A DNA stretch of 64,000 bases, taken from contig OZ242029.1 in the NCBI GenBank assembly GCA_965205015.1, positions 2,816,001 to 2,880,000 of the forward strand, read 5' to 3'. Numbering within the stretch: position 1 is the stretch's first letter; each line of letters begins with the position of its first letter. The stretch comes from Candidatus Poribacteria bacterium (lineage in GTDB: Bacteria; Poribacteria; WGA-4E; WGA-3G). The notes under the pieces were generated by a model, which saw only the letters and a list, made by a program, of their open reading frames with translations, had not been told where the DNA came from and did no database searches. Position numbers and translations under genes: made by a program. Below are positions 9,938 through 34,591 of this stretch, piece by piece.

Positions 9938-12880
9938 TTAATTGAGAATCTCATCCCAATCCCACAAGAAAATTGTGCCATCCATGGCAGTGCTGACGAG
10001 CGTTTTACCATCTGGTGAAAACGCTAACGTTGCAACTTGTTGCGTATGTCCATCAAGAACCGAGATCTGGTCTCCTGTTGTAACTTTCCACAATTGGATT
10101 GCACCGTAGCTGTGTCCATTAACAAGTACCGCACCATCCGGCGAAAATATCAACGGTTTGGCGTAACCCGTGAATGTGTTTCTACCTCGTCTGTGCCCTG
10201 TGCTAATTGAAAAAAGTTTATTACCGGTATCCACGTCCCATAAATGGACGTGACGATGCGTCCCGACAGCAAGCAAGGTCCCGTCTGGAGAAAATGCCAA
10301 GGCAGCAATATGACCCAAATTCTCGCGCCCCGTTGATTCTTCAAAAGCAGCTAAGGTTCCGCTAGTCACAACATCCCACATCTGGATTTTCCCGCGTTGT
10401 GTGCCACTGACGAGCCTTGTACCGTCTGGCGAAAATGTCAATGCAGAAACCCTCGGCATATTGCGAACATTAGTTTTCGGATCAGCGAGGCGGATATTCT
10501 GTTCATCGCCGGTTTCCGTATTCCACAAACGAATTTCACCGGAACCAGAAAATGCCACCATTTTGCCATCAGGAGAAAAAGTCAGTTCATCGGTTCCCTT
10601 ACTATACTGTAGGGTTATGAGTTCACGTCCCGTTCTTACATCCGTCAGGCGAATCAGATGGTCTGAACGCCAAGTCATCAGCGGGAAGCCGTTTGCTTCA
10701 AAGACTACAGCACCTTCTGCCCCTACACTAACGAGTTTCGTGCCATCAGGTGAAAACGCCAAGGTTGGGAACCAATCCCGATGTCCTGTAGATTGGATGG
10801 CGGACTTTTGCGAGGTTTTCACATCCCAAAGGGTAACTATGCCATTAAACGCCACACTTGCAAGTGTGGAACTATCCTCAAAGAAAGTCACCGCCTTCAT
10901 CGACTGTGTGTGTCCGGAGATAGGGTTATCTATCGGAGCACCAGTCTCCGTCTGCCAGAAATGGACCGTGCCATCCGTACTGCTGCTGGCAAGCGTTTGA
11001 CCATCGGGTGAAAACGCTAATGCGGTGATACCGTTGCGGTGACCGGTGAGCGTCACAAGCGGTTCACCTGTGGTGGTGTCCCACAACTGCACTGTTTTAT
11101 CGGTACTCCCACTGGCAAGCCTCTCTCCATCTGGAGAAAACGCTAATACGTTTGTCCAACCTGTATGTCCTTGAAGTGTGACCCATTCGTTCTTGTTGGT
11201 GGTGTCCCACAATCGCACTGTTTTATCGGTACTCCCACTGGCGAGGCGGGTGCCATCGGGTGAAAACGCCAACGCTAATATATTCGGCATAGACGATGAT
11301 TTGCGATGTGAAGGCTTACCAAGGGGTTGAATAGACAAATCTACATGTCCTCTAAGGGTGGATAACTTTTTACGGGTCTTCACATTCCACAGTTCAATCT
11401 TCCCGTCCTCCTTCCCGATTGCAATTTTATCGTGATCCATCGCGTAGACAACATCAAAACTAACATCCCTTGTAAATAATCCCTGACTAAATAGCCAACC
11501 GAATAGCCCAGTTTTGAGATACTTCGTATGCTCTCTGCCGGTCTCAACGTTCAGTTCGCTAATTGCATTTCCTGAGTTACTCAAACTGATAAGCGTTTTT
11601 CCATCTGAAGAGAACCGTAATACCGATGCAGCAGCATATAAATCCTTGAGCAACACTTCGCGTCCCGTCGGTACTTCCCACACTCGGATTTCCGTCTTCC
11701 CGGAATAACCACCGCTACTTGCAAGGAAACGCCCATCAAATGAAAAAGCGAGGCATTGAGATTTGCCAGCAAATAGATTTCTCTCTTTGCCCGTTTCTAC
11801 ATCGTAGAGCCAGATCCCGATATTACTACCGACTGCGAGTTGTGCGCCATCGGGTGAAAACTGAATTACGTTAGCGCCGCCTTTTCCCAAACGCGCTTTC
11901 GCCTTTTCAGGTAGTTTCCATTGCGTATAATTTATGCCAGTTTCATCCGATTCCGCAGCGGCAAATAGCATCAGTTCCTCATCAGGCTGCTGTTCAGAGA
12001 TATGACTCTTATTCGATGCAGTGGAAGCATTTCCGAATTGCGTCCGCACATCCGGTTTAGATTCGATATCCAGCACAACGGGTGCTTCGATAAGTTCAAC
12101 AGTCATTTCCGAAGGGGCATCGAAGCTGTAAGGCTTCTGGAAACGCGCGAAATATTGATTGCTTACCCCCAACATCAACAACACCACTGCTAACGTAGAA
12201 GTCGCAATTGCCCACGGTGCGAATGGTTTACTATTAGGTGGCGTAACCGGTTTCAGACGCGAAATCTCGCGCATGATATTCTCTGTCAGATTCGGTGTGA
12301 TCTGGAAATTCTCCAAAGCCTCTCTTATCATGGGTTCCTCCCTCTTTAAACGCTCTTGTGCGCGGCGCAGACGACTCCTAATTGTATTTGCCGACACACC
12401 CAGAAACTTGCCAATTTCCGCACTGGACATTTCACCGAAGTAACGCAGCGTTAGAATCGTGCGATCACTCTCTGGAAGTTTAGCGAGCAACTTTTTCACA
12501 GCTGCGCGTTGTGCTTCTATCGCTGTCCGTTCGTTTTCGGCAATGATATGCCCTGAATACGTCGCGCGCTCTAACTGAGCGATGCCTGTATCTTCAAGCG
12601 ACTGCATCCACAAACGCTTTTTACGCAGCCATGCAGTACATTGACGACTCGCTATCACATAGAGCCAACTCGCAAAGGACTGCGGTTCCTTCAGTGTTGA
12701 GAGTCTTTGATACGCTTTCAGGAACGTATCCTGCGTAATTTCCTCGGCAATGTGGAAATCCCCGATCTTCCGCCATACGAGGGCGTGAACGGGTTTTTGG
12801 TATTTCCTCACGAGCTGCGTGAAAGCGGTATCATTGCCGTCAAGCGTGCGGCGAATGAGTTCAACGTCACTATTTTTCAT
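9938..12880 (-). CDS. ECF sigma factor - TM helix - WD40 beta-propeller fusion
   Basis: Sigma region 2 (AEEITQDTFLKAY..FASWLYVIA) and region 4 (EIGKFLGVSANTIRSRLRRA), TM 'WAIATSTLAVVLLMLGV', many GH..V..LAFSPDG..LASGS.D..V.LWD repeats. GGAGG RBS before ATG 12880. Confidence 0.92.
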   Translation of the reverse strand: MKNSDVELIRRTLDGNDTAFTQLVRKYQKPVHALVWRKIGDFHIAEEITQDTFLKAYQRLSTLKEPQSFASWLYVIASRQCTAWLRKKRLWMQSLEDTGIAQLERATYSGHIIAENERTAIEAQRAAVKKLLAKLPESDRTILTLRYFGEMSSAEIGKFLGVSANTIRSRLRRAQERLKREEPMIREALENFQITPNLTENIMREISRLKPVTPPNSKPFAPWAIATSTLAVVLLMLGVSNQYFARFQKPYSFDAPSEMTVELIEAPVVLDIESKPDVRTQFGNASTASNKSHISEQQPDEELMLFAAAESDETGINYTQWKLPEKAKARLGKGGANVIQFSPDGAQLAVGSNIGIWLYDVETGKERNLFAGKSQCLAFSFDGRFLASSGGYSGKTEIRVWEVPTGREVLLKDLYAAASVLRFSSDGKTLISLSNSGNAISELNVETGREHTKYLKTGLFGWLFSQGLFTRDVSFDVVYAMDHDKIAIGKEDGKIELWNVKTRKKLSTLRGHVDLSIQPLGKPSHRKSSSMPNILALAFSPDGTRLASGSTDKTVRLWDTTNKNEWVTLQGHTGWTNVLAFSPDGERLASGSTDKTVQLWDTTTGEPLVTLTGHRNGITALAFSPDGQTLASSSTDGTVHFWQTETGAPIDNPISGHTQSMKAVTFFEDSSTLASVAFNGIVTLWDVKTSQKSAIQSTGHRDWFPTLAFSPDGTKLVSVGAEGAVVFEANGFPLMTWRSDHLIRLTDVRTGRELITLQYSKGTDELTFSPDGKMVAFSGSGEIRLWNTETGDEQNIRLADPKTNVRNMPRVSALTFSPDGTRLVSGTQRGKIQMWDVVTSGTLAAFEESTGRENLGHIAALAFSPDGTLLAVGTHRHVHLWDVDTGNKLFSISTGHRRGRNTFTGYAKPLIFSPDGAVLVNGHSYGAIQLWKVTTGDQISVLDGHTQQVATLAFSPDGKTLVSTAMDGTIFLWDWDEILN

Positions 12881-12930
12881 GAATTCCCTCCGATTGTTCC
12901 ATTTTTCATGAATTCCCTCCGATCGTTCCA
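12873..12930. repeat. 29-bp tandem duplication spanning the RBS and start codon of the ECF-WD40 gene
   Basis: tttttcatgaattccctccgat(t/c)gttcca x2. Confidence 0.9.
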
Positions 12931-12933
12931 TAG

Positions 12934-12977
12934 TGACGCGACTTAGGGGTACAACTGGTGCATAATTCTGCAAAAAA
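12934..12977 (-). promoter_or_regulatory. ECF-type promoter copy 1 (upstream of ECF-WD40 gene)
   Basis: Minus strand TTTTTTGCAGAATTAT-GCACC-N17-GCGTCA. Confidence 0.7.
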
Positions 12978-13083
12978 CACATACGCGTTTGGGAAAGAAG
13001 GATTCGTTTGGTTTTATCAATAGTGTACAATTCTAAGTTTGTGTAAATCTTAGGGCAATTTGTCAAGTGAATCAGAAACGAGC

Positions 13084-15520: not shown

Positions 15521-16852
15521 TTATCTCAATGTAGCGTCTATAGAGATTCTCGCGAGGAAAGAATTGACTTTCCCTTCTCCACTGAACGAATTACCGGTGG
15601 CACCTAACTTAAAGCGCGTGCCTTCATCAAAACGGTGCGTGATCCTTCCGCCCTTACCGGGTACAATCCCTGATGCTGCGGTGAGTATAACCTGAGGCAT
15701 GCCGTCTGTTGAGAATTCGCTGTCGCTTGCAAACAGGATGAACGCACCGGCAGCCTCGGCACTCCCCATCCAGAGATCAATCGTGAGCATACCACCATCT
15801 TTAAACGCCGTCGCATCAATCTCAACAACGGTGTAATCTTGAGTGCCTGCTGTCGGTGTTCGGAAAATATTCAAGATATCCTGTGAAGGTTCTTCATCGT
15901 TGAGCACGACGCTTTTTGCCTGTGTGGAAAGAAACCTCGGTGTGTATTCCGATTGATCTGCCTTCGGTGCAAATCCATCACCCTTACGCGGGGTCATAGA
16001 TTTACCAACTTGTGTCCGCACATTCGGTTTTGATGCAAGATCCAGGACAATAGGAGTGTCAATAAGTTCCACCGTCATCTCCGATGGGGCGGCAAAATCG
16101 TAGGGCTGTTGGAAACGTGTTAAGTACTGACTGCTTGCTCCAAATGCCATTAAAACGAGGACGAGGGTTGAGGTAGCGAGTGCCCACGGCACGAACGGCT
16201 TACCACTGGGGGGTGTGGTGGGTTGGATGCGGGAAATCTCTTGCATGATTTTCTCGGTGAGATTCGCCCGAATCTGAAAGCCTTCCAGTGCTTCTCGGAT
16301 CATCGGTTCTGCCTTCTTTAAGCGGAGTCGCGCACGACGAAGCCGACTCTTAACAGTGCTCGCCGATACCCCCAAAAAACGGCTGATCTCTTCACACGTC
16401 ATCTCTCCAAAATAGTGGAGTGTGACGACGGTGCGTTCACTTTCCTGCAACCGGGCGAGCAATCTTTGGACGATGCCGCGCTGCGCCTCTACCGCAGCTT
16501 TTTCCTGCTCCTCGGCAATGTATTGGGAATACGTCACTCCTTCTATTAGTTCGATGTCCGTATCTTCCAACGATTGCGTCGGCATCCGTTTTTTTCTCAG
16601 CCACGCTTGGCATTGACGTGCGGCGATTCTATAAAGCCATCCTGCAAAGCGACTCGGATCCTTCAACGTTTCCAGTTTCTTGTAGACTCGCAGAAAAGTG
16701 TCCTGTGTAATCTCTTCCGCGACGTGGAAATCGCCAACTTTCCGCCATGCGAGCGCGTGGACTGGCTTTTGGTATTTTTTCACCAACTTCGCAAAGGCGT
16801 TTTCATCGCCTGTGAGACTGCGTTGAATTAGTTCTACATCGTCGTTCTTCAT
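15521..16852 (-). CDS. ECF sigma factor - TM helix - extracytoplasmic 'domain X' fusion
   Basis: N-terminal ~280 aa paralogous to the ECF-WD40 protein. C-terminal ~120 aa homologous to the C-termini of the three SelN-like proteins. Confidence 0.9.
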   Translation of the reverse strand: MKNDDVELIQRSLTGDENAFAKLVKKYQKPVHALAWRKVGDFHVAEEITQDTFLRVYKKLETLKDPSRFAGWLYRIAARQCQAWLRKKRMPTQSLEDTDIELIEGVTYSQYIAEEQEKAAVEAQRGIVQRLLARLQESERTVVTLHYFGEMTCEEISRFLGVSASTVKSRLRRARLRLKKAEPMIREALEGFQIRANLTEKIMQEISRIQPTTPPSGKPFVPWALATSTLVLVLMAFGASSQYLTRFQQPYDFAAPSEMTVELIDTPIVLDLASKPNVRTQVGKSMTPRKGDGFAPKADQSEYTPRFLSTQAKSVVLNDEEPSQDILNIFRTPTAGTQDYTVVEIDATAFKDGGMLTIDLWMGSAEAAGAFILFASDSEFSTDGMPQVILTAASGIVPGKGGRITHRFDEGTRFKLGATGNSFSGEGKVNSFLARISIDATLR

Positions 16853-16960
16853 CTGTCCCCTCCAAAGAACTAAATTTGGAGAACCTTCAAGAATGATAAC
16901 GAGGCTGACAGGTTGGACGAAAATCCGTGGACATCCATCCAACCTGCTTATATCTTTGAA

Positions 16961-18946
16961 TCACTGGGCATCATAAATGAACCAGTTACCTTCCACTTTT
17001 CGCATCTTAACAGATACCTCCGAGGGATCTGCCATTGGCACTCTCAACCTGAAGTGGAATTCATCACCCACATACTCGCTGCCTAAGATCTCCATCTGAC
17101 GCAATATTTGACGCATCCGAGTACGCACATCCTCTGGCGCATCCTCAAAATCAACTTCAAATGTATGTCGGGCATCCCCTATAAGCATCGGATGTATTGT
17201 CTCTGCATCAAGGTTCTTAAATGCTTCCACGAAAGCGTTCATCACATCTTCCGCGGATTGATTTAAGTGCGCTGATGACACTTCTTTCCCATCCAATGCC
17301 TGATTCGGTTCAACAGAGATTTTCGCCACGAAGGCATTGACCTGCCCTTTCTTACTATGCCAATCACCGGTCGCCCCTAATTTAAAGTGATGCCCCCGGT
17401 CGAAAGGATAGATGATTTTCTTGGATTTACCCGGTGAGACTCCCCATGCCGAAGCAACCGCGTTCCGAGGTGCACCTTCTGTTGGGGGTTCGCTTTCGCC
17501 ATCAAACAGGTGGAACGAACCTGCAGCCTCTGCATGTCCGACGGAGATATTGATCGTAAGCACACCTCCATTTTCAAACGCCGTGGTATCAATTTTAATG
17601 ATAGTGTAATCTTGATAACCCGGTTCTGGTGTCCGAAAGATATTAAGGATCTCCTGTGAGGTTCGAACATCATTGAGTACAACCTTCAAACGACTCAATG
17701 CGGTATCCGAGTTGAGGGGCTCTGGTTCTGAAGTATCTTCACCGAATCCGGGAAGTTTTCCGTCTAAAGCTTCCTTGAGAAACGTTAGGTAACGTTGCCC
17801 CATGTTTGCTCCGAGAAGATCATTGACGGGCTGCCTGCCCATCAATTCAAGATCTGTTGAAAGAATCAAGGAATCTGACGGCGAACGCTTCTTCCACCCT
17901 TTCATGATTGCCTGTGCCAAAGGGGACTTTTTGTCGAATGGCTTGAATCCATGCTGGTGTCTCAATGCCATGAAAACTTTCTTATTAGCGGTGCGCTCCA
18001 ATTCGACATTCGACACCCAGGTATTGATAAAATTGTCATTCAAGAACTCAATGACTCGGTTGTTGGAGAGGACAACTGCCCTCAGGGCTTTACCGCTCCC
18101 TCAGCACGATTCATCCATCAATGGTCCATCTATAGAGATAGCGTGAATCGGCTTCTGTTGTGCGTGTGCCATCTCCAATACCTCATCTGGCGGCACCCAA
18201 TTAATTTGCTGTGATTTGTAGAAATTCGTTATCAGGGCACGTTCAGCGGTTTCTTGGGTAATCGCTTCTGCGAATTCGACGTTCTTCAGTAAATCTGGCC
18301 TTCCGGCACGAAGTTCCATTTGCGAACAGAAACCTGCATCTGTAATAGAGCTTCCGGGTCCGTATTTACTCCAGTTAACATCAAAGTTTACTGTGCCTTC
18401 AGGGACATACATCTTAAAGAAAGCGACCTTTTTTTGAATTCGATCAATTACAAGATGACCGGTAAACAGCGATGGAGTAAACCACCCATCCTTTAGTTTA
18501 AACTCCGCGTGAATCCGAAACACGATGTCGGCAAATGTATCGTTGTAAGCGCGCAGGCATGCCCACAAACCATAGGAATCGCCCGAGTTGATATGCATCT
18601 TCAAATTCGGATTGGGATGAAGTTGCCGTAGCAATTCTAATGCCCCGGTATTTTCAATCTGCCAGAGTTCGCCGATCGAAACCGCTTTGTCTGGAAGAAA
18701 GGCGCGGAAAACCGAGGCAGGATGCTGCTTCTCTGGTTCAGCAACGCGTAGATTTGCCAATGCCTCCCAATCTACATGGAAATTGGACAAGGTACTCACG
18801 ATTGGGGCGATGAAGCCTTTGACGGACATTTCAGATGCACCATCAAGATTAAGTGTAATTTTTTTATTCTGTGTCAAGTCCTCATTAGCGTTTAATTGTC
18901 CGCTTATCACAATCAGAGTGAGAAATCCAATCATTAGGGTTTTCAT
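16961..18946 (-). CDS. Selenoprotein N-like protein 1 (661 aa; Sec at TGA 18103-18101; signal peptide; domain X plus NTF2-like tail)
   Basis: ORFs 18101-19060 and 16961-18043 are in frame across a single TGA: GPLMDESC-U-GSGKALRAVVLSNNRVIEFLNDNFINTW. FRIHAEF motif present. AAGGAG RBS before ATG 18946. Confidence 0.85.
18068..18083 (-). promoter_or_regulatory. Candidate bacterial SECIS hairpin (SelN-like 1)
   Basis: GAGGGC-AGUU-GUCCUC, starting 18 nt after the UGA. Confidence 0.6.
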
Positions 18947-19144
18947 TTTTACTTCTCCTTGTAATAGAATAACATTACTACGTAAACAACGTCTATCCCA
19001 AAAGTTGTTGCTCGCGTAGATTCTCATCTTTATGGTTTGGAGCGTTGAGGTCGAGCGCACACCTTAATCCTTAAAATTATCCAAACTTTAGTAATTTTAA
19101 TAACGGCAATTTTATCTTTCAGTCGGTTTGCCACGCGCATTCCT

Positions 19145-19954
19145 TTAGAGCCCTCTTAGGAGGGATACCCACCGTTCCCATACGGCTTTAGTGGCAGTTT
19201 TCTGTGCTTCGTTGGCATCTTCTGTCATACCGCGCATCAGGAAAGCGTGACCGACCCCTTCATAGATGACGGGTTCGTAGGTGATGTTTGCGGCATCCGC
19301 CGCGGCTTTAGTGGCATCAATTGTGGCATTGATACGATTGTCGTTCTCGGCGTAGAAGCCATACACCGGTGCTGATATTTTGGGGATATCTTCCGTTGAT
19401 GGGGCAGGACCGTAAAACACAAAACTAGCGGCTATTGTGGTGGAATGAACAGCGTAACTGAACGTTTGACCACCTCCCCAGCAGAATCCGGAGACTGCAA
19501 CCTTTTCATTGGTTTCAGGTAGATTTCGGACATATTTTTCGATGGCATCCAGGTCGGATGTGACTTGGGAGGGTGGGAGTTCGCTGATAGCCCATGGTAC
19601 GTCGTCCCTTGAGTCGAAACTTTCTGTGCCGCCACCGTCAGGTCCCATGCCGGAAAGCATATCTGGACAAATTGCGACAAACCCTTCGGCAGCGAGCGTG
19701 TCTGCGACGAGTCGTATCCAATTGGTGAGTCCGCGACCCTGGTGGATGACGATGATAGCCGTTGCGGGTTCTTTCACCGTTGGATAAACGATAAACGCAT
19801 TGACGATACGCGCATCGGAGGTCGTAACTTTCACCCTTTCGCTGTGTCGCGGGGATACGTCAAGTTGAGTTTTTATACTATCAGCCTCTGCATCGGCAAT
19901 GAACAATAAACCGGTGACAATGATACCTAACATAAGCGTGTGGGCTATCTGCAT
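19145..19954 (-). CDS. Dienelactone hydrolase family protein (secreted)
   Basis: GFCWGG nucleophile motif, YEGVGHAF and a signal peptide. Confidence 0.9.
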   Translation of the reverse strand: MQIAHTLMLGIIVTGLLFIADAEADSIKTQLDVSPRHSERVKVTTSDARIVNAFIVYPTVKEPATAIIVIHQGRGLTNWIRLVADTLAAEGFVAICPDMLSGMGPDGGGTESFDSRDDVPWAISELPPSQVTSDLDAIEKYVRNLPETNEKVAVSGFCWGGGQTFSYAVHSTTIAASFVFYGPAPSTEDIPKISAPVYGFYAENDNRINATIDATKAAADAANITYEPVIYEGVGHAFLMRGMTEDANEAQKTATKAVWERWVSLLRGL

Positions 19955-20208
19955 AGTTTTTTCCTTATTTTTCCTTTGTACTGTGAATAATGGACTCTAC
20001 TACCTTTTAGATATTCTTTAGGACTTACGCGATAATTTAATATCTCAGCATTAAGCCCATTCCCCGATTTATCAATAATCGTCTGATCTGTAACCTCATC
20101 AAACGTCAGGTAAAAAACGAGTCCCTCATCCAAACTCGCGTTGGCGGAAATCGTCCCCAGGAGAATAAGGGGTCCCCAAAAAGCTGCACCGATAAATCCT
20201 CGTATCAT
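19945..20208 (-). pseudogene. Truncated LamG-family gene (N-terminal ~57 aa only)
   Basis: Matches the N-terminus of 24264-25082 (LDEGLVFYLTFD..IIDKSGNGLNAEIL), then similarity ends. Confidence 0.75.
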
Positions 20209-20280
20209 GTTTTCTTTTCCTCCTATAGAGTCATTTGAGTTTTCTAAAGCTTGTCACACAAATCTCGTGTCGATATATAA

Positions 20281-20324
20281 TGACGCGGAGGATTGGAAAA
20301 ACGGTTGCTTAATTCTGCAAAAAA
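20281..20324 (-). promoter_or_regulatory. ECF-type promoter copy 3
   Basis: TTTTTTGCAGAATTAA-GCAAC-N17-GCGTCATTATA. Confidence 0.75.
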
Positions 20325-20401
20325 TAGAGAAAATATGATACGGGAAATGGATTTGGTTTGTTCATAGACTAAATCTGAATATGAAGCGCGTTGGATCCGC
20401 G

Positions 20402-22063
20402 TTAATTTTCGTCCTGCCCTTTCGACGCAGACTCCACGGATATTGTCGCGAGAAAAGCATTGGTACCTCCCTTCTTACTGAACCCATCACCGGTAGCTCC
20501 CAACCGAAAGGATTGACCTCGCTCAAAGATATGCGTGATGCTCTCTGTTCCACCGGATGGAATACTCCACGCTGAAGCGAGGGCATTCTGAGGTACCCCC
20601 TCTGTTGGCAGTTTCCTGTTGCCAGCAAACAAATCAAACGAACCGGCAGCTTCAGCGTACCCGACGGAAACATCAATCGTAAGCACACCCCCATTTTCAA
20701 ACGCTGTCGCATCAATTTCAACGACAGTATAATCCCGAAAGCCCGCCTCTGGTGTCCGAAAAATATTCAGTACCTCCTGTGAGGTCCGAACATCGTTGAG
20801 TACAACTTTCAAGTTACTCAATACAGTATCTGAGTTGAGGGATTCTGGTTCTGAAGTATCTTCACCCAATCCTGGCTGTTTTCCCGCTAAGGATTCTTGG
20901 AGAAACGTTAAGTAATGCCTTGTTGTGTTTCCTCCAACGAGATGAAGTTTATTGGCGGGTTGCCTACCCATCACTTCAAACTGTGGCGATATGATCAAAC
21001 AATCCACTGGAGAATGTTTTTTCCAGCCTTTCATGATTGCCTGTGCTAAGGCATGGGTTGTATCAAATGTTTTGGATTCTCGCTCGCGTCTCTTCGCAAT
21101 CGGGTCTCGTAAACTCGGTACCCGTCCCAATTCGCAATTCGGCACCCATGTGTTGACGAAATTTTCGTTCAAGTATTTTATGATCTGATCGTCGGAGAGG
21201 ACAACTGCCCTCAAGGCTTTGCCACTCCCTCAGCACGATTCATCAGCAAGCGGTCCCATTATTGAGAGGACGTGAACCGGCTTCTCTTGTGCTGGTGCCA
21301 TTTTCAACGCATCTTCCAAAGAAACCCAGTTAATTTCCTGCGATTTGTAGAAACGCAATATCAGTTTACGTTCAGCCGCTTCTTGAGTGATGGATTCTAT
21401 AAACTCGGTGTCTGATACAATTTCTTGGATCTCAGCATGAAGTTCTATTTTTGGACAAAAACCGACATCTATAGTGTTAGTGCTGTTTCGTCCAACATCA
21501 AAATTCAGTATGCCTTCAGGGACGTACATCTTGAAGGCAGTAACCTTTTCCTTAATTCGATCAATAACAAGATACCCAGCGAATTGAGACGGAGTAAATC
21601 GACCATCTCTTAGGATGAATTCTGCATGGATACGGAACACAATTTCAGCAAATCTATCATTGTACGCGCGCAAAGATGCCCACAAGCCGCGAGAATCCCC
21701 TGAATTTATGCTAATATCCAGATTTGGCTTCGGATGAAGTTGTCGCAATAATTCCAGCGCACTTCCTTCCTCGATCTGCCAGAGATCCCCAACAGAAACC
21801 GCTTCGGATGGCAGAAAAGCCCGAAAAACCGAGGTAGGATACCGCTTCTCGGGTTCAGCAACCCGTAGATTCGCCAATTCATCCCACTCCACATGAAAGT
21901 TATATTGCGTGTATTCAATCGGGGCAATGACGCCTTTCACTAACACTGCAGATGTACCATCAAGGTTAAGTGTGATTTTTTTCTTCTCTGTCAAGTCTTC
22001 ATTGGCGTTTAATTGTCCATTTATCATCACCAGAATGAGAAGCCCAATCGTTAAAGTTTTCAT
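20402..22063 (-). CDS. Selenoprotein N-like protein 2 (553 aa; Sec at TGA 21232-21230; signal peptide; domain X)
   Basis: ORFs 21230-22063 and 20402-21214 are in frame across the TGA: GPLADESC-U-GSGKALRAVVLSDDQIIKYLNENFVNTW. Confidence 0.85.
21197..21212 (-). promoter_or_regulatory. Candidate bacterial SECIS hairpin (SelN-like 2)
   Basis: GAGGGC-AGUU-GUCCUC at +18 from the UGA. Confidence 0.6.
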
Positions 22064-22207
22064 TTTACAAATTCCTTAAAATTAACTACGGAAAATACGA
22101 TGTCTAAGTATCCATCTTACAAGAATTCGTTGTTCGCGTAGTATTACTATCAATATACAATAACTCGGGTTATATAAAGTAAAGCATTCTCACTTGCCAG
22201 CTACTCG

Positions 22208-23029
22208 CTAAGGGGTAACCGTCCTCTTTTTGACATCCGCCCAAGTCGTTGCGACTTTATCACTTGGTGAAACAGCGAGGAAATCCCCTACCATTGCCTG
22301 TTTAATTTCCCCATCGCTGAGTGCACGTTGCCAGACAGCGGTTTCATCAATAGAGCCGTTAGCGAATGCGTACTGCAATCTATTTTTTGCGCATCCGATC
22401 CGGAGTTTCGCGTTATTACCCCCAAAGAAATTGAATGTCTTTTTTTCCGAACCTATGACTTTACCGTCTAAATAAATCTTCACGGTTTTTCCGTCGTAGC
22501 TGCCAGCAACGTGGTACCATTTTCGGACACCCATTTTGTGTGAAACTGCGAATTCATGCCGGTCGGTAATCCCGCGTTTATCTCGCGACCCTAAAAACAA
22601 TACAATCTCTGGTCCGTCACCGATATCGGAGCTACCTATACCGTAGGTTCCAGACCAACCGACACCCGAATGGCACCCTTTATCAAGCCAATGCAACATC
22701 CTTTTACCTTTCCATGTTTCTTGATAGTAGATCCATGTCATCATTGTTATTTCGTTTGTAATTTTCAGTTTCTCTTGAGAAGGGATACTGACGCAATCCT
22801 GACCATCATCTGTGATATGAATGGCATTCCCGTATTTGCCCTTCACAATTTGGGTATTCTCGTGGAGTTCTGCGTCAAGACCATTCTTGGATTTGTCAAC
22901 AATTGTCTGATCTTTAACGTTATCAAACGTCAGATAAAAAACCAATTCCTCATCAAGTCCTGCGTTGGTAGAAATTGTCATTAACAGCATGACAGCACCC
23001 GAAAAAGCTGCAATAAATAACCGCGTCAC
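22208..23029 (-). CDS. Secreted LamG/concanavalin-like domain protein with C-terminal TTW-motif tail
   Basis: WYHVAGSYDG..IYLDG, IDETAVWQRALS, tail AVSPSDKVATTWADVK. Confidence 0.88.
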   Translation of the reverse strand: MTRLFIAAFSGAVMLLMTISTNAGLDEELVFYLTFDNVKDQTIVDKSKNGLDAELHENTQIVKGKYGNAIHITDDGQDCVSIPSQEKLKITNEITMMTWIYYQETWKGKRMLHWLDKGCHSGVGWSGTYGIGSSDIGDGPEIVLFLGSRDKRGITDRHEFAVSHKMGVRKWYHVAGSYDGKTVKIYLDGKVIGSEKKTFNFFGGNNAKLRIGCAKNRLQYAFANGSIDETAVWQRALSDGEIKQAMVGDFLAVSPSDKVATTWADVKKRTVTP

Positions 23030-23100
23030 GTTTTCTTTCCTCCTGTAGCGTCTGTTAAGTTTTCCAAAATTTGTTCCATAGACATGGTTTTGATATATAA

Positions 23101-23145
23101 TGACGCGGGTAACAGGCAGAACGGTTGCTTAATTCTGCAAAAAAA
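23101..23145 (-). promoter_or_regulatory. ECF-type promoter copy 4
   Basis: TTTTTTGCAGAATTAA-GCAAC-N17-GCGTCATTATA. Confidence 0.75.
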
Positions 23146-23198
23146 GAACAAAATGTGATACACAGCGCAGCAAACGCGCATAACACAGCAGTTTCATA

Positions 23199-24221
23199 CT
23201 ATTTCTCTTTTACTTTTCCCCATATTGTGCTGAGCAGTTGGGGTTGCGGTGAGACAGGCAACACATATACAGGGTCGAACCAATCCCCTCCAAAATTCGC
23301 CTTAAAAACCCGTCCAATATGTGTCAACTGTGTCCGAGTGTCACTGGGGATATCAAGTTTGAAAATGTGTAGACGTCCCTTAATTTTCTGTGTATAAAGG
23401 ACCTCTTCCCCATCTGGCGACAGCACTGGATATTGTGCTCTGGGCCCGGCTTCATTGAGAAGTTCTCGGAGATCCGTCCCGTCGCGGTTTACAATATAGA
23501 TTGTTTCTTTATCCAGCCATACGGGTGGGAAACGATCCCCTGGCAAAAGGCGCGGGAACGGGTTCTGATTCCAAGAAAAAGCGAGTTTGCTCCCCGTAGT
23601 CGACCAAAACGGTTGATTTTGCCAAGCCGTTGCCGTCCTCGGTAGGAGGTGTTTTTGTCTTCGTGTGTGGAGGTCAATTAGGGCAATTCGGCAGGTATCT
23701 CCAATATAAGACACATACGCTATTTTCGTCCCATCGGGTGACCACGTCGGATATCTGCCCTCCACGACACGCGCCTCTTTTTGTTCACCCAAGGTTGCAA
23801 CGTGGATATGGAACCTGACACCGTCCCAATTCAGGTGTGTGTAAGCGATCTGTTTGCCATCGGGTGACCACGTCGGAGAATCCCTATAAGATTTTCTTTT
23901 TCTTGTGAACACGGGACGGACATTGGAGCCGCTGGGATCCATCAGATATAAGTCCCGGATGCCGCCCTCGCGATCGGAAACGAAAAGAATCTGTTCACCA
24001 GTCGGGGACCAGACAGGGTTTAGGTCATTTGCGCGATGTTGCGTTAAGTTTATCTGTTCACTCCCGTCCGGATTCATCATGTAGACCTCGTAATTGCCGT
24101 CTCGTGAAGAGGTGAACAGAATTTTGGCGGTTGTGGGTGCTGTTGCGAAAACGAAGTTAACATTTACGTCCAGTATCAACACGTTCAATATAGCAAAAAC
24201 GAACAACCGTATTGTTTTCAT
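23199..24221 (-). CDS. TolB-like PD40-repeat protein with C-terminal TTW-like tail
   Basis: Repeated P.WSPDG units, tail PVSPQPQLLSTIWGKVK. Confidence 0.85.
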   Translation of the reverse strand: MKTIRLFVFAILNVLILDVNVNFVFATAPTTAKILFTSSRDGNYEVYMMNPDGSEQINLTQHRANDLNPVWSPTGEQILFVSDREGGIRDLYLMDPSGSNVRPVFTRKRKSYRDSPTWSPDGKQIAYTHLNWDGVRFHIHVATLGEQKEARVVEGRYPTWSPDGTKIAYVSYIGDTCRIALIDLHTRRQKHLLPRTATAWQNQPFWSTTGSKLAFSWNQNPFPRLLPGDRFPPVWLDKETIYIVNRDGTDLRELLNEAGPRAQYPVLSPDGEEVLYTQKIKGRLHIFKLDIPSDTRTQLTHIGRVFKANFGGDWFDPVYVLPVSPQPQLLSTIWGKVKEK

Positions 24222-24263
24222 TTTATGTGCCTTTATGAGGGATTCTGATTTTGTAGGGAGCCG

Positions 24264-25082
24264 TTAGGGAGCGACCGCTCTTCTTTTCATATCCGCCCAA
24301 GTCGTCGCGGCTTTATCGCTCGGCGAAATAGCGAGCATGTTTCCTGTCATCGCTTGTTTGATTTCATCATCACTGAGGGCGCGTTGCCACACCGCAGCTT
24401 CATCAATAGAGCCGTTCGTGAATGTAAGATGGGGTACGTCTTTTGCACATCCGATCCGAACGTCTGCTTCGTTGTCCCCAAAGAAATCGAATTTTTTCTT
24501 TTCTTTTGCTATGACTTTACCATCTACATAGATTTTCATGGTTTCGCCATCGTAACTTCCGACAACATGATGCCATTTTTTTTCGTCCATTTCATGCGGA
24601 GTTCTGAACTCCTGTCGATCCCACTTCCCTTCTATGTGTGATCCCAAAAACAAAAAGATTTCTGGTCCGTTACCGGCATCAGTACCAGCAATACCATAAC
24701 AGTGCGCCCAACCAACCGGAACAACGAAATGACAGTCTTTTTCCAGCCAATGCGCCTTCTCGTTGTTCCATGTTTCTGCAGAATAAATCCATGCCATCAT
24801 TGTTATCTCACCGATAACTTTCAATTTCTCTTGGGCAGGGATATTGACGCAATCTCCGCTTTGACCTTTAAGGCGAATTGCATCTCCATATTTACCCTTG
24901 ACAATATCAACACGCTCAAGTATTTCTGCGTCAAGACCGTTGCCAGATTCATCAATAATCGTCTGATTTTTAACGTTATCAAACGTCAGATAAAAAACGA
25001 GGTCTTCATCCAAACCCGCGTTGGCAAAGGTCACCAACAACGTAACGACACTCAAAAAAGCAGCAATAAATGCCCGTAACAT
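24264..25082 (-). CDS. Secreted LamG domain protein with TTW tail (paralog of 22208-23029)
   Basis: WHHVVGSYDG, IDEAAVWQRALS, tail AISPSDKAATTWADMK. Confidence 0.88.
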   Translation of the reverse strand: MLRAFIAAFLSVVTLLVTFANAGLDEDLVFYLTFDNVKNQTIIDESGNGLDAEILERVDIVKGKYGDAIRLKGQSGDCVNIPAQEKLKVIGEITMMAWIYSAETWNNEKAHWLEKDCHFVVPVGWAHCYGIAGTDAGNGPEIFLFLGSHIEGKWDRQEFRTPHEMDEKKWHHVVGSYDGETMKIYVDGKVIAKEKKKFDFFGDNEADVRIGCAKDVPHLTFTNGSIDEAAVWQRALSDDEIKQAMTGNMLAISPSDKAATTWADMKRRAVAP

Positions 25083-25154
25083 GTTTTCTTTTCCTCCTAT
25101 AGCGTCATTTGAATCTTCCAAAATTTGTCACACAAATCTCGTGTCGATATATAA

Positions 25155-25198
25155 TGACGCGGAGGATCGGAAAAACGGTTGCCTAATTCTGCAAAAAA
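25155..25198 (-). promoter_or_regulatory. ECF-type promoter copy 5
   Basis: TTTTTTGCAGAATTAG-GCAAC-N17-GCGTCATTATA. Confidence 0.75.
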
Positions 25199-25339
25199 TT
25201 AGCAAATTTAGACATGGCTGTTGATAATTAGGGGTAAGGACGATCCATTGTCTTATGAATGAATTTCGATTTTTGAGTTTGCTTTACAGAAACGTAGATA
25301 GATAGGCGCGCGTTGACAAATAGGTTAAAATGATATGGG

Positions 25340-26875
25340 TTATTTTTCAAATGGGGGGACGACAGAGACACGCGCCAAAAAAGCATTGGAAGTGCTCTTT
25401 TGGTTGTTTGCCCTTGTAGCGACCAACTTAAAATGCTGTTTGCCCTCCCTGAAGTGGTGAAAGATATGTCCTGTATTGCCGGGCAAAACGTTCCATGTCC
25501 CAGTCAGTGCTTTATCTGTCGTTTTGTTTGTCAGAATTTTCGCATCGGCATCAAACAATTCAAACGTTCCTGCTGCCGCCCCTGCTCCGACCTGTATCTC
25601 AATGTGGAGCACGCCGCGTTCAAAAGGGGTGGTATCAATCTCCACGACCGTGTAATCTGGCGTATCGGTGTCGGATGTGTTGAAAACATGCAAAATCTCC
25701 ATCAACTCCGTCCCTAAGCTGATCGGGTTTCGATCTAATTTTGAGGCGTTCCCTACACGAGCGCGTTTTCCTTCAAACGCATCCACGGAATGCTGCAGCA
25801 CCGATAGGTATGCTTGCGCGTGATTCCTGTAAGGCAGTGCCATCTCCGGTTGATGCATAATGACTTCCGCGTCGGGGGTCAGTGCCAGAATATCCACAGA
25901 GTCGGTGTAATGGTGTTTCATCTTTTGAGCGACGAGACTCACCCCTTCGCCTTCCGCGCCACCTATCAGTTCTGGCAATTCCCGGAGGAGCACCCACGTA
26001 TTGACGAACTTTTCGTTGAGCGTTTTTATGACTTCAGGATTGGAGAGCGGACCCGCCCTCAAATTTTTGCCATTCGCTCAGCACGATTCATCATCTAAAC
26101 ACCCCCAGACAAGGATGGCATGGATCGGCCGATGGGTCGCTTTTGCCTGTGCGACTGCCTCATCAATCGGCAGCCAGTTGATCTCCGCGAACTTGTAGAA
26201 CTTCAGTTCCAATGCACGATGTGCTTCTTCCGTTGTGATAGTAGCGTCCCACGTGATCTCGTTTTGGTCGGTCTCATCTATAGCGAGGAGTTCCATACGC
26301 GGCACGAAAACCATATCCGCTCCCCCAGAGGCGTTGAGGTCAACGTTCGTGTTGCGCGCCGGCAAGGCTAATGAAAACGCGCGAATCGTTCCGCTTTCTA
26401 CATTCACCACTACTTTCCCTGCAAATTGTGATGGAATAAACCTGGCTTCGGACTCCCACTCATCGTTTTTTTCTTGCCACTCCTGATGAGCAGCGGAGTT
26501 CAACGCGAATTCTGCATGAATTCGGAAAGCAATTTCTGCGTAGTCTGAGGCACGTGCCCGTAAGCAGGCAAAGGCACCTTCCTCACCGTACCCTAAATCA
26601 GCCGTTGCTCCCGGATGAAACTGACGCAGGAAGGAAACAACACTGTTCGCATCAAGTTTATAGACATCCCCTACCGTCACAGCAGATGGTGGCAGGAACG
26701 CAGTGAAAGCATCAGTCCGGTATTCCTTAACAGGTTGGTTTGGTGACAGATCGAAAAGTTCAACGTGTTCTGGCGATGCCTTGTGCATACGAAAGGTAGA
26801 ATCCGCAATCGGTTCCCAATGTGCATGCACCTGTAGACGTGTTGAACTATTTAGGACATTACAAAGGTTTATCAC
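25340..26875 (-). CDS. Selenoprotein N-like protein 3 (511 aa; Sec at TGA 26080-26078; domain X)
   Basis: ORFs 26078-26875 and 25340-26062 are in frame across the TGA: HAILVWGCLDDESC-U-ANGKNLRAGPLSNPEVIKTLNEKFVNTWVLLREL. GGAGG RBS before the GTG start. Confidence 0.85.
26043..26060 (-). promoter_or_regulatory. Candidate bacterial SECIS hairpin (SelN-like 3)
   Basis: GAGGGCG-GGUC-CGCUCUC at +18 from the UGA. Confidence 0.6.
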
Positions 26876-26994
26876 TATGTGCCTCCATTAATTTAAGATG
26901 CCTTTACAGAAAACTGTTGGATAAATTGGAGTATTCAGTCTTACTATTCATACGCATTTTCGGATGCACCTTCAGAAAGAATAGGAAAGCATTC

Positions 26995-33790: not shown

Positions 33791-34591
33791 ATGCCAAAAT
33801 TAGGACTTATCCATTACAACTACGCAAGCAAATCACTTGACGATTTCCTGAAATTTACGAGTGAAACGGGGTTCCGCTACGTCGAACTCCAAATTGGCGA
33901 TGTCTGGAACTCGGAGGTCGCGAATCCTGAGCAGAACGCCGAAGCCGTGAGAGCACAGGTTGAAGGTTACGGTTTACAGGTCTCCGCACTGGCGGCAGGG
34001 AACGATTTCGTTGTGTTGGAAGAGGAGGCTATCCAGTCCCAAGTGGCTCGGATGGAACGCATTGCAGGACTTGCGAAACGCCTCGGTACTTCGGTTCTCC
34101 GCACTGAGGGGGGTGCCGCAAAAGATGCCGTTCCAGAAAGTCGATGGGTCGAAGCGATGGCTGGATGTCTGACCCGATGCCTTGAATTCGCCGAACGTGA
34201 TGAGGTCTACTTGGCAGTGGACAATCACGGCATCGTTACAAATGACGGTGATTTGCAAGTAGAGCTCTTTGAACGTGTCGGTTCCAAATATGTCGGTGCG
34301 AATATGGACACGATGAATTACCGTTGGGCGGGACACGATTTAGAAACCGTGGGCAGATATTATGAGATCGTCGCGCCTTATACATTGCACACGCACCTGA
34401 AAGACGGGACGGGTTCACGTGGGGATTACCGCGGCGAAGCCCTCGGTGAAGGTGAAATAGATCTGGCAAAAGCGATTCGCTGTCTGAGGGAAGCAGGCTA
34501 TGATGGCGTCTGGTGTTGTGAATATGAAGGTAGGGAAAACGACGGCACGGGTCAAAGAAAAAGTTTCACGTGGATGCAAGCAAATTTATAG
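33791..34591 (+). CDS. Sugar phosphate isomerase/epimerase (AP endonuclease 2 TIM barrel)
   Basis: LAVDNHG, HTHLKD, LGEGEID and GYDG..C.EYEG. Confidence 0.85.
   Translation: MPKLGLIHYNYASKSLDDFLKFTSETGFRYVELQIGDVWNSEVANPEQNAEAVRAQVEGYGLQVSALAAGNDFVVLEEEAIQSQVARMERIAGLAKRLGTSVLRTEGGAAKDAVPESRWVEAMAGCLTRCLEFAERDEVYLAVDNHGIVTNDGDLQVELFERVGSKYVGANMDTMNYRWAGHDLETVGRYYEIVAPYTLHTHLKDGTGSRGDYRGEALGEGEIDLAKAIRCLREAGYDGVWCCEYEGRENDGTGQRKSFTWMQANL

What the first reader, a model, noticed from the sequence alone, without database searches (positions are those of the whole stretch)
16961..26875. Three bacterial Selenoprotein N (SELENON)-like genes hidden as split ORFs by in-frame UGA
Seen: three ORFs (18101-19060, 21230-22063, 26078-26875) all end in ...DESC-TGA. 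Each is followed in the same frame by 19, 5 or 5 sense codons and then the next track ORF, giving DESC-U-GSGKALRAVVLS (copies 1 and 2) and DESC-U-ANGKNLRAGPLS (copy 3). The stop is TGA at the same aligned position in all three divergent paralogs. Knowledge (recalled): human SELENON has WGALDDQSC-U-GSGRTLRE..LNESFISTW, plus upstream FRIHAEFQL and F.P.QF.G. All are matched here, e.g. copy 3 WGCLDDESCU, FRIHAEFAL, FIPSQFAG, LNEKFVNTW. Inference: these are Sec-containing SelN homologues of 661, 553 and 511 aa. Two carry signal peptides, placing them in the periplasm, analogous to the ER lumen. SelN is generally treated as an animal/eukaryotic selenoprotein, so an expanded family in a probable sponge symbiont would be striking, either by host-symbiont transfer or as a bacterial origin.
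Basis: partly seen in the sequence, partly recalled or inferred. Interest (0 to 1): 0.97.

Follow-up and report, generated by a model that had tools for sequence, protein, structure and literature searches.

The report
Bacterial selenoprotein N genes in Poribacteria
Three genes in this sponge-associated-type bacterium (Poribacteria) encode true relatives of animal selenoprotein N, each with a selenocysteine UGA codon and its own bacterial decoding hairpin, which shows that this human muscle-disease protein family is large and diverse in bacteria.

Summary
Three minus-strand genes (16961-18946, 20402-22063, 25340-26875) each carry one in-frame TGA in an SC-U-G/A motif.

**Homology.** Read through, they match animal selenoprotein N (SELENON) over one stretch spanning the TGA (whole-library phmmer E 1e-29 to 2e-21; BLASTP 33% identity, E 7e-38). 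Sea-urchin and starfish SCCGSGRTLRE (store letter C) aligns letter for letter with the bacterial SCUGSGKALRA.

**Evidence for selenocysteine.**
- TGA sits at this site in 146 of 150 listed homologues from 120 Poribacteria genomes.
- Some relatives have Cys there; rare ones have Trp or Gly.
- A hairpin 17 nt after the TGA is 98-100% paired across 55 sequences, has compensatory changes, and shows suppressed synonymous variation.
- selA, selB, selD and tRNA-Sec are present in 5 of 5 closest genomes.
- The window itself uses TGA as an ordinary stop.

**Differences from the animal protein.** There is no EF-hand, the decoding hairpin lies inside the coding sequence, there is an extra C-terminal beta-sandwich, and some relatives are fused to an ECF sigma factor.

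**Novelty and gaps.** No Pfam or NCBIfam model, solved structure, or searchable paper covers a bacterial SelN. The window's own genome is not held, so its Sec machinery is inferred from relatives. Function and direction of transfer stay open.

The parts
16961..18946 (-). SelN-like selenoprotein gene, copy 1 (661 aa from the ATG at 18946; an alternative GTG lies at 19060). Signal-peptide-like N-terminus, SelN N-domain, thioredoxin-like domain with SCUG, beta-sandwich, and an extra C-terminal tail of about 110 aa with no family. The true stop is the TGA at 16961-16963.
18101..18103 (-). Sec codon (TGA) of copy 1, in DESC-U-GSGK
18068..18083 (-). SECIS-like hairpin of copy 1 (GAGGGC-AGUU-GUCCUC), starting 17 nt after the TGA
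20402..22063 (-). SelN-like selenoprotein gene, copy 2 (553 aa), with a signal-peptide-like N-terminus
21230..21232 (-). Sec codon (TGA) of copy 2
21197..21212 (-). SECIS-like hairpin of copy 2 (GAGGGC-AGUU-GUCCUC)
25340..26875 (-). SelN-like selenoprotein gene, copy 3 (511 aa, GTG start, no signal peptide). In the AF2 model the N-domain is about residues 1-205, the thioredoxin-like domain about 210-375 with C265-U266 at the N-cap of helix 267-274, and the beta-sandwich about 385-511.
26078..26080 (-). Sec codon (TGA) of copy 3, in DESC-U-ANGK
26043..26060 (-). SECIS-like hairpin of copy 3 (GAGGGCG-GGUC-CGCUCUC)
15521..16942 (-). ECF sigma factor + transmembrane segment + C-terminal beta-sandwich, directly downstream of copy 1. 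The probable start is MKNDD near 16852. The beta-sandwich is 57% identical to that of copy 2. Relatives carry the full SelN core in this position.

Best explanation
The three genes are intact. They encode selenocysteine-containing bacterial homologues of animal selenoprotein N (SELENON).

**Decoding.** The in-frame UGA is decoded as Sec by the bacterial SelB/tRNA-Sec system. A short hairpin inside the coding sequence guides this. Its stem starts 17 nt after the UGA and it has a 4-nt G-rich loop (GGUC in copy 3, AGUU in copies 1 and 2).

**Protein.** Each protein has the SELENON-specific N-domain (FRIHAEF, P.QF.G), then a thioredoxin-like domain. The vicinal Cys-Sec pair (SCUG/SCUA) sits at the N-cap of the first helix, as a redox centre does. 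A Poribacteria-type C-terminal beta-sandwich follows.

**Inferred mechanism (not shown).** The Cys-Sec pair cycles between selenol/thiol and selenenylsulfide and acts as a thiol/selenol oxidoreductase or redox sensor on protein or small-molecule oxidants. Copies 1 and 2 would act in the periplasm, because they have signal-peptide-like N-termini. Copy 3 would act in the cytoplasm. In relatives the same core is tethered through one transmembrane segment to an ECF sigma factor, where it would serve as the outside sensing domain.

**Shown:** homology, a conserved TGA with Cys exchange, a constrained hairpin, Sec machinery in close relatives, and the fold prediction.
**Inferred:** actual Sec insertion in this organism, localisation, and chemistry.
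For: **1. Homology to SELENON.**
- 485 hits at E<=1e-3, including animal SELENON P0194 (1.2e-29), P0230 (1.1e-25) and P0264 (2.1e-21).
- 33% identity over copy 3 residues 82-294, E 7e-38, spanning the Sec site; copy 2 against hagfish SelN, E 9e-27.
- R118, P148, P172, N177 and L277 are invariant in 28 of 28 bacterial and animal sequences. Echinoderm SCCGSGRTLRE aligns with the bacterial SC[U]GSGKALRA. The store writes U as C, so the echinoderm letter may stand for U.
- the ESM Atlas first hit of the Cys form P0136 is the cluster 'Selenoprotein N', score 0.93.

**2. The TGA is conserved.**
- 94 of 120 Poribacteria-phylum genomes have matches. Of 150 listed rows, 146 contain a TGA.
- 50 of 50 motif sites are TGA.

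**3. Sec/Cys exchange.**
- Cys forms are P0131, P0136, P0147, P0157, P0177, P0204 and P0007.
- P0007 and P0204 (CC) share a clade with support 99 with P0098, which ends at ...DDESC.

**4. The hairpin.**
- 42 sequences, 7 pairs, 98.0% of cells paired against 36-69% for slid partners. Two pairs show changes on both sides (C-G to U-A; G-C to C-G).
- 13 sequences, 6 pairs, 100% paired. G-C changes to A-U in 4 sequences.
- codon entropy of the six hairpin codons is 0.205 bits against 0.994 gene-wide. Only 2 of 199 windows are as low.

**5. Machinery in the 5 closest genomes.**
- selB 5 of 5 over the cut-off.
- tRNA-Sec 5 of 5 over the gathering score and next to selB.
- selA 5 of 5.
- selD 5 of 5, each itself with one in-frame TGA.

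**6. Standard genetic code.** Of 48 long frames in the window, 19 end in TAA, 16 in TGA and 13 in TAG. Copy 1 itself terminates at a TGA.

**7. Fold.**
- AF2 gives mean pLDDT 89.5 and pTM 0.79.
- The central domain matches thioredoxin-like structures 7tkv, 3ira and 3f9u at probability 1.00.
Against: - No whole genome is held for the window. The window has no tRNA or Rfam match. The Sec machinery of this particular organism is therefore inferred from relatives whose orthologues are 73-85% identical.
- There is no protein-level or RNA evidence. No RNA run is listed.
- Covariation in the hairpin is modest, with 3 pairs showing double changes in all. The helix lies in a conserved coding motif, so part of its conservation is protein constraint.
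- The hairpin is in two different registers in the two paralogue groups.
- No Rfam SECIS family matches, even at E<=10.
- Some family members have Trp (TGG; L054, P0126) or Gly (GGC; L067) at the site, so the residue is not indispensable for every member.
- Function is not tested. No conserved partner gene was found.
Confidence: 0.9

Rival explanations
1. The six ORFs are what gene callers report: separate genes, or genes split by nonsense mutations (pseudogenes). The TGA terminates translation.
For: All public gene calls of homologues stop at ...DDESC. Most of the 120 listed hits are N-halves of about 300 aa named 'hypothetical protein'. C-halves are called separately (P0125 and P0127).
Against: - The same stop type at the same codon occurs in 146 of 150 listed homologues, down to about 39% identity. 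It is never TAA or TAG at the site.
- The frame continues without a start codon or gap.
- Cys-containing full-length relatives and animal SELENON align across the site.
- The second halves 'start' at the Leu codon of the conserved LRA motif.
- AF2 folds the read-through protein as one thioredoxin-like domain spanning the site, at high confidence.
Confidence: 0.03
2. The UGA is read through without selenium, for example as Trp, Cys or Gly by near-cognate tRNAs or a suppressor, or under an altered genetic code.
For: Natural variants with TGG (Trp) and GGC (Gly) at the site exist, so such residues are tolerated by some members.
Against: - TGA is an ordinary stop in the window (16 of 48 long frames), which rules out global reassignment.
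- The complete Sec machinery and a Sec-containing selD are present in 5 of 5 close relatives.
- A constrained hairpin lies at the position expected of a bacterial SECIS.
- The residue aligns with the Sec of animal SELENON.
Confidence: 0.04
3. On origin rather than identity: the bacterial genes are 'eukaryote-like proteins' that Poribacteria captured from an animal (sponge) host, not the ancestral pool from which animal SELENON came.
For: - Poribacteria are known sponge symbionts rich in eukaryote-like proteins (recalled).
- In the tree the animals and bacteria are two sides of one long branch.
- No sponge sequence was in the tree, so a branch point at the sponge node cannot be excluded.
Against: - Bacterial diversity is much deeper than animal diversity in the same tree (end branches up to 2.15 against 0.45 or less; several starred bacterial clades).
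- Cys forms come from other, unnamed metagenome lineages. Their nearest ESM Atlas clusters are mostly Planctomycetota, with scores of 0.89 and 0.88, which are leads only.
- The family is in 94 of 120 genomes of the phylum, with up to 18 matches per genome.
- The bacterial proteins lack the EF-hand and the animal N-terminus.
Confidence: 0.2

Closest known systems
Animal selenoprotein N (SELENON / SEPN1)
   Same: - Significant sequence homology over the N-domain and the thioredoxin-like domain.
- The same SC-U-G redox motif at the same aligned column.
- Shared motifs FRIHAEF, P.QF.G, G.LDD.SC and LN..F..TW.
   Different: - No EF-hand and no animal N-terminal membrane anchor (no EF-hand in Pfam; the alignment starts at animal residue 259).
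- The Sec is specified by a hairpin within the coding region, not by a 3'-UTR SECIS.
- An extra C-terminal beta-sandwich.
- Many paralogues per genome.
- Fusions to ECF sigma factors.
Thioredoxin-like DsbH/DUF255 domain proteins (PF03190; PDB 7tkv, 3ira)
   Same: The central domain has the same fold (Foldseek probability 1.00, 159-185 aligned columns). There is a weak Pfam hit at E 0.036, below the cut-off.
   Different: Sequence similarity is below the family threshold. The redox motif is a vicinal C-U, not CxxC. The SELENON-type N-domain is absent from those proteins.
Bacterial SECIS elements, such as that of E. coli fdhF (recalled from the literature)
   Same: A stem-loop immediately downstream of the UGA inside the ORF, with a small G-containing apical loop. 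GGUC is, as I recall it, also the fdhF loop.
   Different: The stem starts 17 nt after the UGA, about two codons further than I recall for fdhF. No bulged U is evident. No Rfam SECIS model matches. Binding to SelB is untested.
ECF sigma factors with C-terminal transmembrane or extracytoplasmic extensions (recalled class)
   Same: Relatives P0098 and P0007 have Sigma70_r2/r4 domains, one hydrophobic segment, and then an outside domain. The window gene 15521-16942 has the same layout.
   Different: In the relatives the outside domain is a SelN-type selenoprotein core. In the window it is only the shared beta-sandwich. I know of no described sigma factor with a selenoprotein sensor domain (not searched specifically).

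Membership tests
Selenoprotein N (SELENON) family | Significant sequence homology to named SELENON proteins over the conserved core | tested here: met
   (E 1.2e-29, 1.1e-25, 2.1e-21). Names. (E 7e-38, 33% identity, residues 82-294). (E 9e-27).
Selenoprotein N (SELENON) family | Sec (UGA) in the SCUG redox motif at the homologous position | tested here: met
   Searches show SCUG in copies 1 and 2 and SCUA in copy 3. One search shows the column aligned with echinoderm SC[C]GSGRTLRE; the store writes U as C, and vertebrate models skip the residue.
Selenoprotein N (SELENON) family | EF-hand calcium-binding domain and N-terminal membrane anchor of the animal protein | tested here: not met
   Pfam finds no EF-hand in any of the three proteins. 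The alignment to the animal protein begins only at its residue 259. These features are additions to the animal protein rather than part of the shared core.
Selenoprotein N (SELENON) family | Eukaryotic 3'-UTR SECIS | tested here: not met
   No Rfam SECIS match in 16900-26900 at E<=10. A coding-region hairpin of bacterial type is present instead.
Bacterial selenoproteins (SelB-dependent) | In-frame UGA conserved among homologues, with Cys in some homologues | tested here: met
   (146 of 150 listed rows with TGA). (50 of 50). Cys forms.
Bacterial selenoproteins (SelB-dependent) | Stem-loop directly downstream of the UGA (bSECIS) | tested here: met
   (98% and 100% paired, with compensatory changes). 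(synonymous-site suppression). SelB binding is not testable here.
Bacterial selenoproteins (SelB-dependent) | selA, selB, selC and selD in the same genome | tested here: inconclusive
   The window's own genome is not held. All four are present in 5 of 5 closest relatives.
Bacterial selenoproteins (SelB-dependent) | Selenium actually incorporated into the polypeptide | not testable with these tools
   Needs 75Se labelling or mass spectrometry.
Thioredoxin-fold oxidoreductases | Thioredoxin-like fold with the redox residues at the N-terminus of the first helix after a beta strand | tested here: met
   The AF2 model has strand 251-256, C265-U266, then helix 267-274. Foldseek matches 7tkv, 3ira and 3f9u at probability 1.00. 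This rests on prediction only.

The most novel reading that the evidence does not exclude
SELENON is at root a bacterial family. It began as an ancient, diverse Cys/Sec oxidoreductase-sensor module that the animal stem lineage acquired from bacteria and fitted with an EF-hand. In Poribacteria the module has expanded into a selenium-dependent envelope redox-signalling system. Members include one-polypeptide ECF sigma factor / transmembrane / SelN-selenoprotein fusions, in which the redox state of a Cys-Sec pair outside the membrane would control transcription. A further speculation is that the stem-loop reported next to the UGA of animal SEPN1 mRNA (recalled, Howard et al. 2005; not checked here) is a relic of the bacterial SECIS.
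Probability: 0.3. Interest if true: 0.92.

Novelty: new variant of a known kind. Interest (0 to 1): 0.8.

Why it matters
**Why SELENON matters.** SELENON mutations cause human congenital myopathies (recalled). Its chemistry is still poorly defined. I found no solved structure of it or of any relative, by PDB sequence search or by Foldseek against the PDB to April 2026.

**What a bacterial family offers.**
- Tractable proteins for structure and enzymology. These include natural Cys forms, and Trp and Gly variants that serve as built-in controls.
- A new bacterial selenoprotein family that current annotation systematically splits in two. No Pfam or NCBIfam model exists, and public calls end at ...DESC.
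- A concrete test case for the origin of an 'animal-specific' selenoprotein (Lobanov 2007 passage).

**The sigma-factor fusions.** They suggest a kind of transmembrane signalling that I have not seen described.

Tried and rejected
- **Protein libraries.** Pfam and NCBIfam scans of the three proteins gave nothing above cut-offs. A PDB sequence search gave 0 hits at E<=0.01.
- **RNA libraries.** Rfam at gathering score over the whole window gave 0 matches. Rfam at E<=10 on 16900-26900 gave only two chance snoRNA-like matches and no SECIS family. ARAGORN found no tRNA in the window.
- **Own genome.** None is held.
- **RNA runs.** No RNA holder is listed.
- **Taxonomy of the Cys forms.** The search with P0136 returned 16 proteins, none with an organism name. 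The cluster look-up gave names only for the three animal proteins.
- **A single hairpin register for all 55 sequences.** Rejected. Copy-3-type sequences pair columns 24-30 with 35-41, while copy-1/2-type sequences pair 24-29 with 34-39. They were therefore counted separately.
- **Rows dropped before the hairpin counts.** Of 60 unique regex hits, I dropped 3 unrelated hits (two in the window, one in L011) and the 2 non-TGA variants (L054, L067). L061 gave no motif with my pattern and was not followed up.
- **LamG as a conserved partner.** A LamG gene follows the SelN-like gene in only 7 of 38 loci examined, all close relatives. It was not taken as a partner.
- **My own recollection.** I half-remembered a published crystal structure of a Poribacteria SelN homologue and could not confirm it. 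The PDB searches and paper searches found nothing.
- **Limits of the literature check.** Supplements of the papers were not seen. Subscription journals are not in the library.

Full report
**1. Observation**

On the minus strand there are three pairs of same-frame ORFs, each pair separated only by a TGA. Reading TGA as U joins each pair into one protein.
- Copy 1 is 16961-19060. It is 661 aa from the ATG at 18946, with its Sec codon at 18101-18103. It ends at a genuine TGA stop at 16961-16963.
- Copy 2 is 20402-22063, 553 aa, with its Sec codon at 21230-21232.
- Copy 3 is 25340-26875, 511 aa, with its Sec codon at 26078-26080.

The listed 'start' of each downstream ORF is the TTG (Leu) of the conserved L-R-A motif.

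The window uses all three stop codons. Of 48 stop-to-stop frames of at least 200 codons, 19 end in TAA, 16 in TGA and 13 in TAG. TGA is therefore not reassigned genome-wide.

**2. Homology to selenoprotein N**

Pfam, NCBIfam and PDB sequence searches give nothing above threshold.

An exhaustive phmmer search of copy 3 against 1.84 billion representatives gives 485 hits at E<=1e-3. Most are bacterial N-halves that end at query residue 265, one residue before the Sec. Three of the 150 hits listed are animal proteins:
- P0194 (wombat), E 1.2e-29
- P0230 (Nematostella), E 1.1e-25
- P0264, E 2.1e-21, named 'Selenoprotein N' of hagfish by UniRef

P0230's own relatives are named Selenoprotein N or SELN in dozens of vertebrates.

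BLASTP aligns copy 3 residues 82-294 with the wombat protein in a single segment that spans the Sec site (33% identity, E 7e-38). Copy 2 aligns with hagfish SelN at E 9e-27.

In a 28-sequence alignment of bacterial and animal proteins, R118, P148, P172, N177 and L277 are invariant. The sea-urchin and starfish entries read DDQSCCGSGRTLRE against the bacterial DESC[U]GSGKALRA. The protein store writes U as C, and most vertebrate gene models skip the residue.

The ESM Atlas puts a natural Cys form (P0136) nearest to the cluster 'Selenoprotein N' with score 0.93.

**3. Is the TGA selenocysteine?**

(a) Conservation.
- A six-frame search of 120 genomes of the same phylum finds matches in 94, with up to 18 per genome and 786 in all.
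- Of the 150 rows listed, 142 have exactly one TGA, 3 have one TGA plus a TAG, 1 has two TGA, and 4 have none.
- Of those 4: one is TGG (Trp, L054), one is GGC (Gly, L067), one stops short of the site, and one was not examined.
- In the window and loci L001-L048, 50 of 50 motif sites are TGA.

(b) Cys exchange. Full-length relatives carry SCCGSGK (P0131, P0136, P0147, P0177), ACCATGK (P0157) or SCCGTGK (P0007). P0007 and P0204 (Cys) fall in one clade with support 99 together with P0098, which ends at ...DDESC.

(c) A hairpin.
- All three copies fold a short G+C-rich stem-loop starting 17 nt after the TGA.
- In 42 unique copy-3-type and sigma-type sequences, the 7-bp stem (GAGGGCG/CGCUCUC, loop GGUC) is paired in 98.0% of 294 cells. 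Slid controls give 36-69%. Two pairs change on both sides.
- In 13 copy-1/2-type sequences a 6-bp stem in a register shifted by two (loop AGUU or AGGU) is paired in 100% of 78 cells. G-C changes to A-U in 4 sequences. That swap is made of two third-codon-position changes (AGG to AGA with GTC to GCT).
- Across 31 copy-3 orthologues, the six hairpin codons have a codon entropy of 0.205 bits, against 0.994 for all 204 conserved degenerate columns. Only 2 of 199 windows of six columns are as low.
- By single-sequence energy the hairpins are not exceptional, with z between 0.0 and -1.1. The support is therefore comparative, not thermodynamic.

(d) Machinery.
- No genome is held for the window. The window has no tRNA or Rfam match.
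- The five closest genomes are Poribacteria MAGs whose orthologues are 73-85% identical. All five have selB over the cut-off, a tRNA-Sec over the gathering score next to selB, selA, and selD with one in-frame TGA of its own.

**4. Anatomy and predicted fold**

AF2 with a 55-row alignment gives mean pLDDT 89.5 and pTM 0.79 for copy 3. The model has three parts:
- a beta-rich N-domain, residues about 1-205;
- a thioredoxin-like domain, about 210-375, with strand 251-256, then C265-U266, then helix 267-274;
- a beta-sandwich, about 385-511.

Foldseek against the PDB finds no full-length match and no SELENON structure. The central domain matches thioredoxin-like entries 7tkv, 3ira and 3f9u. The C-terminal domain matches small beta-sandwich modules (Ena, GOLD, collagen-binding, CBM6).

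Copies 1 and 2 begin with MK, a hydrophobic run, and LNA/NE, which looks like a signal peptide. This reading is from the sequence; no predictor was run. Copy 3 has only four codons of open frame upstream of its GTG and no such segment.

The animal EF-hand and N-terminal region have no counterpart in the bacterial proteins.

**5. Surroundings**

- The gene downstream of copy 1 (15521-16942) is an ECF sigma factor (Sigma70_r2, r4, ECF). It has a hydrophobic segment and a C-terminal domain 57% identical to the beta-sandwich of copy 2 (E 1e-41).
- In relatives the same sigma + transmembrane layout carries the whole SelN core. Thirteen of the 120 listed hits have sigma Pfam domains. The 576-aa forms end at DDESC, and P0007 (690 aa) continues through CC.
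- Between the copies lie a dienelactone hydrolase (19145-19954), two LamG-domain proteins (22208-23029, 24264-25121) and a PD40 beta-propeller protein (23199-24221).
- The LamG 5' part and its upstream 140 nt occur three times. The copy at 20186-20325 is 91% identical to the one at 25060-25199. Both of those lie just downstream of a SelN-like gene, which indicates segmental duplication.
- The SelN-LamG adjacency is seen in only 7 of 38 loci, all close relatives.

**6. Evolution**

A quick maximum-likelihood tree was built from 47 rows and 386 columns.
- The 12 animal sequences form one clade (support 100) on a long stem of 1.56.
- Copies 1 and 2 group with unnamed Cys forms (support 98).
- Copy 3 groups with the sigma fusions (support 99).
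- Bacterial end branches are far longer than animal ones.

The tree is unrooted and holds no sponge sequence, so the direction of transfer is not settled. The breadth within bacteria makes a bacterial origin the more economical reading, but that is inference.

**7. Mechanism**

Shown: a conserved Cys-Sec pair at the position of a thioredoxin-fold redox centre, and the elements needed to decode it.

Inferred: the pair forms a selenenylsulfide and acts as an oxidoreductase or redox sensor. Copies 1 and 2 would act in the periplasm and copy 3 in the cytoplasm. In sigma-fused relatives it would serve as the external input domain. I put about 0.9 on 'genuine Sec-containing SELENON homologues' and about 0.5 on the specific redox-sensor/oxidoreductase role.

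**8. Novelty**

- Full-text searches found no paper that joins SELENON or 'selenoprotein N' with Poribacteria. One unrelated paper holds both 'Poribacteria' and 'selenoprotein' (listing only). None uses SelN-like terms for bacteria (listing).
- A 2026 review of the prokaryotic selenoproteome and the 2025 deep-Sep paper do not mention SelN in their main text (term searches only).
- Lobanov et al. 2007 state that SelN appears specific to animals (passage read).
- Supplements were not available, and subscription journals are not covered, so prior mention elsewhere cannot be excluded.

I rate this a new variant of a known kind. The family and the decoding system are known. What is new is the domain of life, the coding-region SECIS, the architecture and the expansion.

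Noticed in passing
window 15521-16942 (-); relatives P0098, P0007: An ECF sigma factor with a transmembrane segment and a C-terminal beta-sandwich shared with the SelN-like proteins (57% identity). In relatives the same sigma + TM layout is fused to the full SelN core, with either TGA or Cys.
   Followed up: partly
L054:902-955 (TGG), L067:794-847 (GGC), protein P0126 (W): Family members with Trp or Gly in place of Sec. In L054 and L067, the two seen as DNA, the downstream hairpin is still present. They may be recently inactivated or have taken on a new function.
   Followed up: partly
relatives G001-G005: The selD gene of all five closest genomes carries one in-frame TGA, so selenophosphate synthetase is itself a selenoprotein there.
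   Followed up: no
window 20045-20325, 22869-23145, 24925-25199: There are three copies of the 5' part of a LamG-domain gene plus its upstream leader. The leaders at 20186-20325 and 25060-25199 are 91% identical. The copy at 19945-20208 is a truncated LamG remnant just downstream of SelN-like copy 2. This indicates segmental duplication of a SelN-LamG unit.
   Followed up: partly
protein P0006 (374 aa): A homologue in which the N-domain is joined directly to the distal part and the beta-sandwich. It lacks the stretch that holds the redox motif.
   Followed up: no
window 16964-17401 (-), C-terminal tail of copy 1: Copy 1 has an extra tail of about 110-145 aa after the beta-sandwich, with no Pfam match. 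Its function is unknown.
   Followed up: no
window 33791-34591 and 34595-35425 (+): Two ORFs of similar size (266 and 276 aa) lie in the same frame, separated by a TAG plus one further codon. They are probably tandem genes. This was not examined.
   Followed up: no
window 9938-13066 (-): A 1042-aa protein with many WD40 beta-propeller matches. Such eukaryote-like repeat proteins are, as I recall, typical of Poribacteria.
   Followed up: no
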